Origin: the human T2T-CHM13v2.0 reference genome, Homo sapiens | Direction: 5' to 3' | Assembly: GCA_009914755.4 (NCBI GenBank) | Contig: CP086569.2 | Location: 22,112,001-22,176,000 of the forward strand | DNA length: 64,000 nucleotides | Shown here: one piece after another, positions 34,401 to 36,950 of the stretch | Layout: the number at the start of each line of letters is the position of its first letter | How positions within the stretch are numbered: position 1 is the stretch's first letter | Program-made: the position numbers

Positions 34401-36950
34401 AATTTAACAGAACAGAATACAGAAGCCAGAAATACAGCCACATATTTCCAGCTATTGATATATATAGTCCACTAATCTTCAATCAATTGGACAAAAACAC
34501 ACACTGAGAAAAATGATATTCTTCTAAATAAATGGTACAGAAATAATTTGATTGCATTATTCAGTGGAAGGACACATGAGATCCCTTTCTTTCGCCATAA
34601 AGGAAAATCAAATCCAGATCAACTAAAGACTAAAATGTGGACACGAACTTACAAATGTACTTGAAAAAAAAGAAAAAACACTCTGAGCATTGTTGTAGGC
34701 AAATATTACAAGATTAAAATCTAAAAAGCATAGGAAACAAAAATAAGTAAGAGCAACTTAAACCAAAAATACTCTGCACATCAAAAGAAATCATCTAGAA
34801 ACTGAACCCACAATTTACAGATTGGGTAACATTTTTCAGTAAATTTTGACAGGGGACTAATTTATGAGAAACTCATATACAATGCCTATATCCCCATTGT
34901 ATCTTGGAGTTAACTAAGTGTTTTGTATTTTTTTTTTTTTATTTTACAAGTTTATAGGTGGAAGAGACTTGCCTTATCTCAGACGAGACTTTGGACTTGA
35001 ACTTTTGAACTACTGTTGTGATGAGTTAAGAATTCATAAATTTATGAGAAACTCAAGTTCAACAAAAGAATCTTATTAAAAAGTGTGTTTATTTGTCTTA
35101 TTCTCACACTGCTATAAAGAACTGCCTGAGACTGGGTAGATTATAAAGAAAAGAATTTAAATTGATTTACAGTTCCACAAGTTGCTCAGAAAGCATGGCT
35201 GGAGCACCTCAGAAAAGTGACAATCATGGCAGAAGGGAAAGGAAAATCAACCAAGCCTTCACATGGTGGTTGTAGAGAGCAGAGAAAGTGCTACACACTA
35301 TCATGAGAAAAACAGGAAAAAATCTGCCCTCATGATCCAACCACCTTCCACCAGGCTCTTCTTCCAACACTGAATATCATAATTATACATGAGATTTGGG
35401 TGGAAACAAAGTCAAACCGTATCACTTCACCATGCCCTCTCCCAAATCTCATGTCCTTCTCAAATTTTAGAACAAAATCATGCCTTCCCAAGAGCCCCCA
35501 AATTCTTAACTCATCACAACATTAGTTCAAAAGTTCAAGTCCAAAGTCTCATCTGAGATAAGGCAAATCTCTTCCACCTATAAACTTGTAAAATAAAAAA
35601 AAATACAAAACACTTAGTAACCTCCAAGATACAATGCGGATATAGGCATTGTATAAATGCTACCATTCCAAAATGGAGAAATTGGCCAAATGAAAGGCGC
35701 TATAGGCCCCATGTAAGTCCAAAATGTATCAGGGCAGTTATTAAATCTTAAAGCTGTAAAATAAGATTCTTTGACTCCATGTCTCACATCCAAGCCATTT
35801 GATGTAAGAAGCAAGCTTCCCAGGAACCAAGCACCCCTACCCCTGTGGCTTTACAGGATACAGCCTCATTGGCTGCTTTTACAGGCTGGCATTAAGTGCC
35901 TGTAGCTTGTCCAGGTGCATGGTGCAAGCTATTGGTGGATCTATCATTCTGAGGCCTGAAGGACAGTGGACCTCTACTCACAGCACCACTAGGCAGTGCC
36001 CCTGTGGGGACTCTGTGTTAGAGATCTAGCCCAATATTTCCTTCTGCATTTCACTACTAGAAGTTCACTTTGAGGAATCTGCCCCTGCAGCACATTTCTG
36101 CCTAGACATTCAGATGTTTCCATACTTTCTCTGAAACAAGGGAGAGGCTTCCAAACCACCATTCTTGTCTTCTGCACACCTGCAAGCCAAACACCACATG
36201 GAAGCTGCCAAGGCTTGGGTTTGCACCCTTTGAAGTAATGGCCCAAGATGTACCTTGACCACCTTTAGGTACATTTGGAGCTGGAGCAGCTGGAATGCAG
36301 GTTGCCAAGTTCTGAGTCTGTCTATAGCGGTGGAGATTTGGGCTGGCCCACAGAACCATTTTTCCTTCCAAAGCCTTCAGGCCTATAAGGGGCAGGGTTG
36401 CAGCAAATGTATGGAAAGTACACTGGAGGCATTTCCCCCATTGCATTGTTTATTAACATTCAGCTCTCCTTTACTTATACAGATTTCTGCTGCCTTGATT
36501 TCTTTTCCAGAGGATGGAGGGTTGGTTTTGTTTTGTTTTGGTTTGGTTTTGGGTTTTTTTTTTTTTTTTTTTTCTGAAATGGTCAGGCTGCAAATTTTTC
36601 AAACATTTATTCTCTGCTCCCTTTTTAAACGTAAGTTCTAGTTTCAGGTCAATGATCTATGTAAATGCATGTGGGTTTTTATAAGCAGCCAGGTCAATTC
36701 TTGAAGGCTTTGCTGTTTAGGAAATTTTTCCCTCAGATACTCTAAATGATCTTTCTTAAGTTCAAAGTTCCACACATTTTTAGAGCATTTCCACAATGCA
36801 GCCAGTCTGTTTTTGCTAAAGCATAGAAAGAGTGACGTTTGTTCCAGTTCTCAGTAACTATCTCACCTTCACGTCAAACTTCCTCAACTGGGACTTCACT
36901 GTCCATATCACTGTCATCGTATTGGTTACAGCCATTTGAATAGTCTCTAG

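What the first reader, a model, noticed from the sequence alone, without database searches (positions are those of the whole stretch)
34859..35660. Recent inverted duplication of MaLR-internal sequence flanking a MaLR 3' LTR, bounded by 17 bp direct repeats
Segment 34876-35030 is a ~96% identical reverse-complement copy of 35480-35660 (the internal 3' end of the adjacent minus-strand MaLR). This forms a ~160 bp inverted repeat whose loop contains the whole 3' LTR. The copy is flanked by a 17 bp direct repeat of host L1M sequence, aatttatgagaaactca (34859-34875 and 35040-35056), which looks like a target-site duplication. MaLR copies are normally 15-25% diverged, so this rearrangement is much younger than the element. 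It looks like a fold-back or template-switch event, or a retrotransposition-like capture. Such palindromic structures can be fragile or recombinogenic.
Basis: seen in the sequence. Interest (0 to 1): 0.6.

Follow-up and report, generated by a model that had tools for sequence, protein, structure and literature searches.

The report
Old DNA-repair patch copied from nearby
A 159-base piece of an ancient retrotransposon was copied backwards into a spot about 470 bases away, most likely while a chromosome break was being mended millions of years ago; this is a real but ordinary example of a well-documented kind of primate mutation.

Summary
Bases 34876-35034 are the reverse complement of 35501-35655: 155 aligned positions, 6 mismatches (96.1%), and one 4-nt length change in a T-run. 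The copy plus a 4-nt filler (CATA, 35035-35038) is bracketed by an exact 17-bp direct repeat, AATTTATGAGAAACTCA, at 34859-34875 and 35039-35055.

Other copies of the same MaLR internal sequence in the window are only 68-72% identical to the donor. The element's own two LTRs are 28% diverged. The duplication is therefore about ten-fold younger than the element, but not recent: roughly 3 substitutions on each arm suggest an age on the order of 10-20 Myr.

The copy interrupts an old L1 ORF2 remnant that becomes colinear with human ORF2p once the copy is removed. There is no poly(A) tail and no L1 endonuclease site, and the donor lies 466 bp away in cis. The size, filler and duplication match the "repair-mediated proximal duplications" catalogued in primates (824 in human, mean 162 bp).

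It is an ordinary member of a known mutational class, with no evidence of function or fragility. The orthologous empty site could not be checked with these tools.

The parts
34859..34875 (.). Direct repeat copy 1 (AATTTATGAGAAACTCA). This is host L1 ORF2-derived sequence and forms the left target-site duplication.
   Evidence: Exact 17-mer with only two occurrences in the window. It encodes the N-L-*-E-T-Q stretch of the L1 ORF2 remnant.
34876..35034 (+). Arm A, the acceptor copy: 159 bp in the sense orientation of the MaLR internal sequence, reverse complement of 35501-35655.
   Evidence: 155 aligned columns, 6 mismatches, one 4-nt indel in the T-run. It shares 17 private states with arm B against both in-window paralogs. 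It interrupts the L1 ORF2 remnant.
35035..35038 (.). 4-nt filler, CATA, at the right junction. It is present in neither the donor (which continues TGGGGG) nor the host. It is the reverse complement of TATG at 35043-35046, giving a perfect 14-nt palindrome TCATAAATTTATGA (35034-35047).
   Evidence: Read directly. The small hairpin is not thermodynamically notable (z -0.64).
35039..35055 (.). Direct repeat copy 2, the right target-site duplication.
35056..35085 (+). 30 bp of host L1 ORF2 remnant between the duplication and the end of the LTR.
   Evidence: It translates to VQQKNLIKK, colinear with ORF2p ...IYKKKTNNPIKKW.
35086..35430 (-). 3' LTR of the MaLR-type element. It lies entirely in the loop between the arms.
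   Evidence: It aligns with the second LTR at 37410-37786 (28% raw divergence) and with LTRs of two other elements in the window.
35431..35500 (-). Last 70 bp of the MaLR internal region. It is not duplicated and is part of the loop.
35501..35655 (-). Arm B, the donor: native part of the MaLR internal region, 71-225 nt upstream of the 3' LTR.
   Evidence: The internal region 35431-37000 aligns colinearly through this segment with paralogs at 52189-50631 and 57339-58334.
35086..37786 (-). The whole LTR-internal-LTR element (MaLR-type, no long ORFs), with an Alu nested at 37055-37357.
   Evidence: L1 ORF2 homology resumes immediately after 37786.

Best explanation
This is the scar of a single DNA-templated event in the germline of a primate ancestor. 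A break or stalled strand arose in an old L1 remnant, 30 bp outside the 3' LTR of a MaLR element. A free 3' end, ...GAGAAACTCA-3', used the nearby chromosome as an ectopic template. It landed on the opposite strand about 780 bp ahead (at 35655) and copied 155-159 nt back towards itself, to 35501. It then let go, picked up 4 filler bases (CATA) and rejoined the original duplex 17 bp upstream of where it had left, or at the other side of a 17-nt staggered break. That step duplicated AATTTATGAGAAACTCA.

In DSB-repair terms this is a synthesis-dependent strand-annealing or alternative end-joining 'repair-mediated proximal duplication'. In replication terms it is an inter-strand template switch with point order 4-1-3-2. 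The product has since drifted neutrally, with about 3 substitutions on each arm. It has no demonstrated function.

Shown: the anatomy, the direction of copying, the relative age, and the lack of retrotransposition hallmarks. Inferred: the break, the polymerase steps, and the absolute age.
For: (1) Copy direction. Arm B is colinear within the MaLR internal region of three elements. Arm A interrupts an L1 ORF2 remnant. When 34876-35055 and the MaLR are removed, that remnant aligns in one stretch to human ORF2p residues 1014-1177, E = 7.8e-15, with the repeat sequence present once.

(2) Copied, not an independent family member. Identity is 96.1% against 68-72% for paralogs, and there are 17 positions where A = B differs from both paralogs.

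(3) A single old event followed by drift. Using the paralogs as outgroups, the 6 differences polarise 3 to A and 3 to B. K2P is 0.040 between the arms against 0.36 between the element's LTRs.

(4) Junctions. There is an exact 17-bp duplication, a 4-nt filler, and no terminal A/T tract.

(5) Fit to the described class. Pace et al. 2009 (PMC2671141) found 824 human insertions within TEs whose donor lies less than 5 kb away. Their mean length is 162 bp and median 147 bp. None of 39 inspected had poly(A). Fillers ran 1-68 nt. Target-site duplications of 4-21 nt occurred in 6 of the 39. An opposite-orientation example is described. Rows with about 3.8% donor-acceptor divergence are shared with orangutan and rhesus.

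(6) Walker et al. 2021 (PMC7954356) describe events where return point 4 precedes point 1. These appear as one large insertion, and must be inter-strand when point 2 lies ahead of point 1.
Against: - No orthologous empty site could be obtained, so the pre-event state is reconstructed rather than observed (all returned nothing).
- No convincing microhomology exists at the left junction (0 nt; at best CA/CAT if a 2-nt gap is allowed).
- At the right junction a 5-nt AATTT microhomology is available but was not used directly, since CATA intervenes.
- A 17-bp duplication is a minority feature of repair-mediated duplications (6/39), and it sits in the modal range for L1 ORF2p staggered nicks (12-18 bp; PMC11702581).
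- The copy (159 nt, about 780 nt away) is larger and more distant than the short-range template switches catalogued in great apes (median 12, maximum 128).
- The locus was not found in Pace's Table S1. That pipeline discarded TE-annotated inserts, so this is weak evidence against.
Confidence: 0.8

Rival explanations
1. L1 ORF2p made a 17-nt staggered break at this site and target-primed reverse transcription failed or never started. The break was then patched by DNA synthesis on the neighbouring chromosome. The initiating lesion would be L1-derived but the copying DNA-templated.
For: The 17-bp duplication falls in the 12-18 bp range reported for ORF2p staggered nicks, and ORF2p-generated ends are reported to give templated insertions and fold-back junctions without L1 sequence (PMC11702581). 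The left edge of the duplication gives a bottom-strand site 5'-AATT/AG-3', which shares two T's and the A with the TTTT/AA consensus (read directly).
Against: AATT/AG is a poor match to TTTT/AA, and the other edge (CTCA/AG) is worse. Nothing L1-derived or poly(A)-like is at either junction. Staggered breaks of this size also occur in repair-mediated duplications with no L1 signature (TSD 4-21 nt).
Confidence: 0.1
2. Retrotransposition-like capture. A transcript through the MaLR region was reverse-transcribed by L1 ORF2p at a nicked target, giving a short retrocopy flanked by a 17-bp target-site duplication (a class 1 templated sequence insertion).
For: TSD length is typical of L1-mediated insertions. 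The insert length is within the range of templated sequence insertions.
Against: There is no poly(A) or poly(T) at either end; the T13 run is internal and inherited from the donor's A9 run. No TTTT/AA site is present. The donor is 466 bp away in cis, whereas RNA-mediated insertions land essentially anywhere; in Pace et al. 0 of 39 proximal duplications had poly(A) against 17 of 29 distant ones. The Alu nested in the same element (37055-37357) shows what a true TPRT product looks like here: a T21 tail plus a CATTTTCAG duplication.
Confidence: 0.05
3. Two independent old MaLR fragments in opposite orientation were later homogenised by gene conversion. Alternatively, the structure is an assembly or cloning fold-back artefact.
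For: Inverted repeats can undergo intrachromosomal gene conversion, and fold-back chimeras occur in sequencing libraries (general knowledge).
Against: Arm A has no LTR and no further MaLR sequence. It ends abruptly on both sides inside a single L1 ORF2 codon series and is bracketed by a 17-bp duplication, which independent MaLR integration (short TSD) would not give. An artefact would be 100% identical. Instead there are 6 substitutions split 3:3 and a 4-nt indel.
Confidence: 0.03

Closest known systems
Repair-mediated proximal duplications (RDs) of Pace, Sen, Batzer & Feschotte 2009, PLoS Genet 5:e1000469
   Same: It is an insertion of at least 50 bp interrupting a TE, with a single donor less than 5 kb away on the same chromosome (here 466 bp). 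Its length of 159-163 bp compares with a class mean of 162 and median of 147. There is no poly(A). The 4-nt filler falls within the 1-68 nt range and the 17-bp TSD within the 4-21 nt range. Opposite orientation is allowed. Donor-acceptor divergence behaves as a neutral clock.
   Different: The inserted DNA is itself repeat-derived (MaLR internal). The published pipeline would have filtered it out as a nested TE, and it is not in their Table S1 as far as I could search. Only 6 of 39 inspected proximal RDs carried a TSD. No clear microhomology is seen at the left junction.
Inter-strand template switch under the four-point model (Loytynoja & Goldman 2017; Walker et al. 2021, PLoS Genet 17:e1009221)
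   Same: It is a reverse-complement copy of nearby sequence, with switch points ordered 4 (34859) < 1 (34875) < 3 (35501) < 2 (35655). Point 4 before point 1 gives a net insertion plus a short direct duplication. The event creates a new inverted repeat.
   Different: The scale differs: 159 nt copied from about 780 nt away, against a median of 12 nt (maximum 128) within tens to hundreds of nt. A 4-nt filler lies at the return junction.
L1 ORF2p-mediated retrocopies / class 1 templated sequence insertion polymorphisms (Onozawa & Aplan 2016)
   Same: A short templated insertion flanked by a 17-bp target-site duplication.
   Different: There is no poly(A), no TTTT/A endonuclease site and no cryptic polyadenylation signal logic, and the donor is adjacent in cis rather than distant.
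Polymerase theta-type snap-back fillers at alternative end-joining junctions (Kent et al. 2016 eLife 5:e13740; van Schendel et al. 2016 PLoS Genet 12:e1006368)
   Same: The 4-nt filler CATA is the exact reverse complement of the adjacent TATG, in palindromic register, as expected for a short in-cis templated extension.
   Different: Only 4 nt are involved, so chance cannot be excluded (1/256 for this register). The 159-nt copy itself is much longer than typical Pol theta inserts.

Membership tests
Repair-mediated proximal duplication (Pace et al. 2009) | An insertion of at least 50 bp interrupts an otherwise colinear sequence (a TE). | tested here: met
   With 34876-35055 and the MaLR removed, the flanks align in one stretch to human L1 ORF2p 1014-1177, E 7.8e-15. 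The query was a hand-joined, frameshift-corrected conceptual translation.
Repair-mediated proximal duplication (Pace et al. 2009) | A single donor lies on the same chromosome within 5 kb. | tested here: met
   The donor is 35501-35655, with 466 nt between the arms. The next-best matches in the window are 68-72% identical. The rest of the genome could not be searched.
Repair-mediated proximal duplication (Pace et al. 2009) | No poly(A)/poly(T) tract of 5 bp or more at an end of the insert. | tested here: met
   The insert ends read ...CTCA|TATACAATG and GAATT|CATA|AATTT. The T13 run is internal and corresponds to the donor's A9.
Repair-mediated proximal duplication (Pace et al. 2009) | Breakpoint signatures of imperfect repair: filler, microhomology, deletion and/or TSD. 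| tested here: met
   There is a 4-nt filler and a 17-bp TSD. Microhomology at the left junction is absent or doubtful.
Repair-mediated proximal duplication (Pace et al. 2009) | An empty pre-insertion site exists in an outgroup species. | not testable with these tools
   No primate genomes are available. Exact-pattern scans of metagenome, viral and prokaryote collections found nothing.
L1 ORF2p target-primed reverse transcription product | Target-site duplication of about 7-20 bp. | tested here: met
   17 bp.
L1 ORF2p target-primed reverse transcription product | A poly(A) tail abuts one TSD copy. | tested here: not met
   None at either end. Compare the nested Alu at 37055-37357, which has a T21 tail.
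L1 ORF2p target-primed reverse transcription product | An endonuclease site resembling 5'-TTTT/AA-3' at a TSD edge. | tested here: not met
   The edges read AATT/AG (bottom strand, left edge) and CTCA/AG (top strand, right edge), read directly.
Short-range template switch (four-point model) | A descendant segment is the reverse complement of nearby ancestral sequence, flanked by colinear fragments L->1 and 4->R. | tested here: met
   The point order is 4-1-3-2.
Short-range template switch (four-point model) | Event scale of tens of nucleotides within tens to hundreds of nt. | tested here: not met
   159 nt were copied and point 2 lies 780 nt from point 1. The published great-ape set has a median of 12 and a maximum of 128. 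This is the same logic at a larger scale.
Independent MaLR (ERVL-MaLR) integration | LTR-bounded element or solo LTR with a short TSD, at family-level divergence from other copies. | tested here: not met
   It is a fragment of internal sequence only, with a 17-bp TSD and 96% identity to its neighbour against 68-72% to paralogs.
Fragile or recombinogenic long palindrome | Near-perfect arms separated by a very short spacer, with evidence of instability. | not tested
   The arms are 96% identical and 155 bp long, but the spacer is 466 nt. The single-strand fold is very stable (-198.6 kcal/mol, z -30), which follows trivially from the repeat. Persistence long enough to gain about 3 substitutions per arm argues for stability. 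No population or breakage data are available.

The most novel reading that the evidence does not exclude
The duplication created a 155-bp, 96%-paired hairpin with a 466-nt loop. If the locus is transcribed, for example within an intron, the hairpin could act as a long double-stranded RNA: an ADAR editing or Dicer substrate, or a splicing or back-splicing modulator. Alternatively, it is a rare footprint of an aborted L1 ORF2p nick that was repaired from local DNA. That would make such TSD-bearing proximal inverted copies a countable record of failed retrotransposition in primate germlines.
Probability: 0.07. Interest if true: 0.35.

Novelty: new member of a known kind. Interest (0 to 1): 0.12.

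Why it matters
It matters little on its own. It is a clean, datable textbook example of how break repair or template switching copies nearby DNA and creates new inverted repeats. It also shows that such events are missed by catalogues that discard repeat-derived inserts, because a repeat annotator would simply label arm A as another MaLR fragment. A systematic search for TE-derived, high-identity proximal copies would enlarge the known set of repair-mediated duplications. It could also test whether the TSD-bearing subset is linked to L1 endonuclease sites.

Tried and rejected
- **Searches for the orthologous or empty site.** Exact-pattern scans returned nothing: metagenome contigs with an empty-site-specific 25-mer and a right-flank 27-mer, viral contigs, and prokaryote genome contigs. 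No dating by presence or absence was possible.
- **Rfam.** No family reached its gathering score anywhere in the window, so there is no known structured RNA here.
- **L1 continuity at the DNA level.** I tried to show it using other L1 fragments in the window. They are too diverged (about 60-67%) to be informative across the junction. Alignment to solved human ORF2p worked instead.
- **Pace et al. Table S1 and Figure S1.** I searched for the junction sequences and for plausible divergence values. No row matches this locus: L1M acceptor, 155-bp donor, about 463-bp distance.
- **Junction palindrome.** I checked whether the small palindrome at the right junction (35034-35047) or the left junction forms a notable hairpin. 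Neither does (z -0.64 and -1.08).
- **TGAGTT/AACTCA complementarity.** TGAGTT at 35022-35027 is complementary to AACTCA at 35050-55. About 0.9 such 6-mer matches are expected by chance between a 17-mer and a 155-nt segment, so I rejected it as microhomology.
- **Donor and acceptor reversed.** I considered arm A as the original and arm B as the copy. This is rejected because arm B is colinear within three MaLR internal regions.

Full report

Yes. The repeat finder reports two adjacent inverted-repeat blocks: 34932-35034 / 35501-35603 (103 nt, 97%) and 34876-34940 / 35591-35655 (65 nt, 94%). A gapped local alignment joins them into one arm pair. Arm A is 34876-35034 and is the reverse complement of arm B, 35501-35655. 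There are 155 aligned columns, 6 mismatches (96.1%) and a single 4-nt indel in a homopolymer (T13 in arm A, A9 in arm B).

The direct repeat AATTTATGAGAAACTCA is exact at 34859-34875 and 35039-35055. With up to two mismatches allowed, these are the only two hits in the window, against 0.10 expected. It is also the only non-low-complexity exact 17-mer direct repeat spaced 100-400 nt apart in the whole 64 kb.

Between the end of arm A (35034) and the second repeat lie four bases, CATA (35035-35038). They match neither the donor, which continues TGGGGG, nor the host.

**2. Is 96% unusual for this family?**

Yes. The window contains two further elements of the same family, at 50631-52551 (minus strand) and 56913-59717 (plus strand). 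Their segments homologous to arm B are 68-72% identical by blastn and 25-27% diverged in a four-way MAFFT alignment.

The two LTRs of the element that holds arm B (35086-35430 and 37410-37786) were identical at integration. They now differ at 28% of sites (K2P 0.36), against 3.9% (K2P 0.040) for the arms. The duplication therefore happened in roughly the last tenth of the element's residence time.

In a self-comparison of the window, the arm pair is the most similar non-tandem repeat. Alu-Alu pairs reach only 88-90%.

**3. What are the surroundings?**

The window is primate DNA, since it contains several Alu elements.

The donor sits in an LTR-internal-LTR unit on the minus strand:
- 3' LTR at 35086-35430.
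- Internal region from 35431 to about 37050, with no long ORFs.
- A nested Alu at 37055-37357, with a T21 tail and a CATTTTCAG target-site duplication.
- 5' LTR at 37410-37786, with TG...CA termini.

From my own knowledge of the THE1/MST consensus, this is a MaLR. No repeat database was available to name the subfamily.

The unit is itself inserted in an old L1. The left flank translates to ...LKPKILCTSKEII*KLNPQFTDWVTFFSKF*QGTNL*ETQVQQKNLIKK. The sequence right after 37786 continues ...WANNIS..HPFSKEDIQ...REKQ...KFVQPL*ETVW*FL.

I built a hand-joined, frameshift-corrected translation in which both the 180-bp block (34876-35055) and the MaLR are removed. It aligns in one stretch to solved human L1 ORF2p, residues 1014-1177, with E = 7.8e-15. 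The left flank alone gives E = 0.07. The repeat sequence (N-L-*-E-T-Q, corresponding to IYNELKQ) occurs once in ORF2p. The 17-mer is therefore host sequence that was duplicated, and arm A is the insert.

**4. Direction and history of the copy.**

Arm B is native. The internal region 35431-37000 aligns colinearly through it with both paralogs. Arm A shares 17 states with arm B that differ from both paralogs, so it was copied from arm B and not from another family member.

Using the paralogs as outgroups, the six differences polarise three to arm A and three to arm B; a seventh apparent difference in that alignment is an artefact of the T-run indel. This pattern fits one copying event followed by independent neutral decay. 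It does not fit an assembly fold-back artefact, which would be identical, or ongoing gene conversion.

For the age, I used the convention of Pace et al., in which pairwise divergence equals 2.2e-9 per year times time. On that basis 3.9% corresponds to about 18 Myr. The Poisson range for six events gives roughly 6-40 Myr. This is an inference. In their table, duplications with about 3.8% divergence are shared by human, chimpanzee, orangutan and rhesus.

**5. Mechanism.**

The junctions carry none of the hallmarks of target-primed reverse transcription:
- There is no terminal A/T tract.
- The two edges of the duplication read AATT/AG and CTCA/AG, not TTTT/AA.
- The donor lies 466 nt away in cis. 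That is hard to reconcile with an RNA intermediate, which could insert anywhere.

The features do match the repair-mediated proximal duplications of Pace et al. 2009 (PMC2671141). They found 824 human insertions within TEs whose only donor lies less than 5 kb away. Mean length is 162 bp and median 147 bp. Of 39 inspected breakpoints, 0 had poly(A). Fillers ran 1-68 nt. Target-site duplications of 4-21 nt occurred in 6 of the 39. At least one described case is in opposite orientation. Their model is synthesis-dependent strand annealing on an ectopic nearby template.

The same product can be written in the mechanism-agnostic four-point template-switch notation (Walker et al. 2021, PMC7954356) as 4 (34859) < 1 (34875) < 3 (35501) < 2 (35655). 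That paper notes that events with point 4 before point 1 look like a single large insertion and need re-invasion of the new duplex. It also notes that a point 2 ahead of point 1 requires an inter-strand switch. This event is larger than theirs (median 12 nt, maximum 128).

The filler CATA is the exact reverse complement of TATG four bases further on. It creates the perfect 14-nt palindrome TCATAAATTTATGA (35034-35047). This would fit a short snap-back extension of the kind described for polymerase theta (PMC4912351, PMC5068794). Four bases are too few to insist on it, and the hairpin is not energetically notable.

A DSB-repair origin and a replicative origin cannot be separated from sequence alone.

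A hybrid reading remains open. In it, L1 ORF2p made the 17-nt staggered break, since 12-18 bp duplications are typical of its nicks and its ends are recombinogenic (PMC11702581). The poor endonuclease motif does not favour this.

**6. Consequences.**

As single-stranded DNA, 34859-35672 folds into one long hairpin (-198.6 kcal/mol, z = -30 against shuffles). That follows directly from the repeat. No Rfam family matches anywhere in the window.

The spacer is 466 nt, the arms are imperfect, and both have survived long enough to accumulate substitutions. By my own knowledge, instability is associated with near-perfect arms and very short spacers. No population data were available to test this.

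**7. Verdict.**

It is an ordinary instance of a well-catalogued mutational class. The only mildly instructive point is that the inserted DNA is repeat-derived. Standard repeat annotation, and the published repair-duplication pipeline, would therefore not flag it. I could not find it in their Table S1. Interest is low.

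Noticed in passing
window 31897-32058: There is a 78-bp unit in 2.1 tandem copies, 94% identical (TRF score 296), inside A-rich L1-like sequence. This is another comparatively young local duplication in the same old-repeat neighbourhood.
   Followed up: partly
window 37044-37366: An Alu on the minus strand (about 37055-37357) is nested between the MaLR internal region and its 5' LTR. 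It has a T21 tail (37055-37075) and a CATTTTCAG target-site duplication at 37044-37052 and 37358-37366. It serves as an in-window example of a genuine L1-mediated insertion, for contrast with the poly(A)-less inverted copy.
   Followed up: partly
window 50631-52551 (-) and 56913-59717 (+): Two further LTR-internal-LTR elements of the same MaLR-type family lie here. They are 66-72% identical to the element at 35086-37786 and were used as outgroups. Three such elements within 25 kb is a fairly dense cluster.
   Followed up: partly
window 35083-35085 and 37787-37789: The MaLR interrupts the L1 ORF2 remnant at ...AAAAAGTG | GTGGGCAAA. Only GTG is visibly repeated on both sides, not a clear 5-bp duplication. 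The original target-site duplication of this old element seems partly eroded, or my LTR end is off by a base or two.
   Followed up: no
window 3612-3965 vs 12900-13246: This is a 354-bp direct repeat pair at 88% identity, longer than a single Alu. It may be an Alu plus flanking sequence, or a dimeric arrangement. I did not examine it.
   Followed up: no
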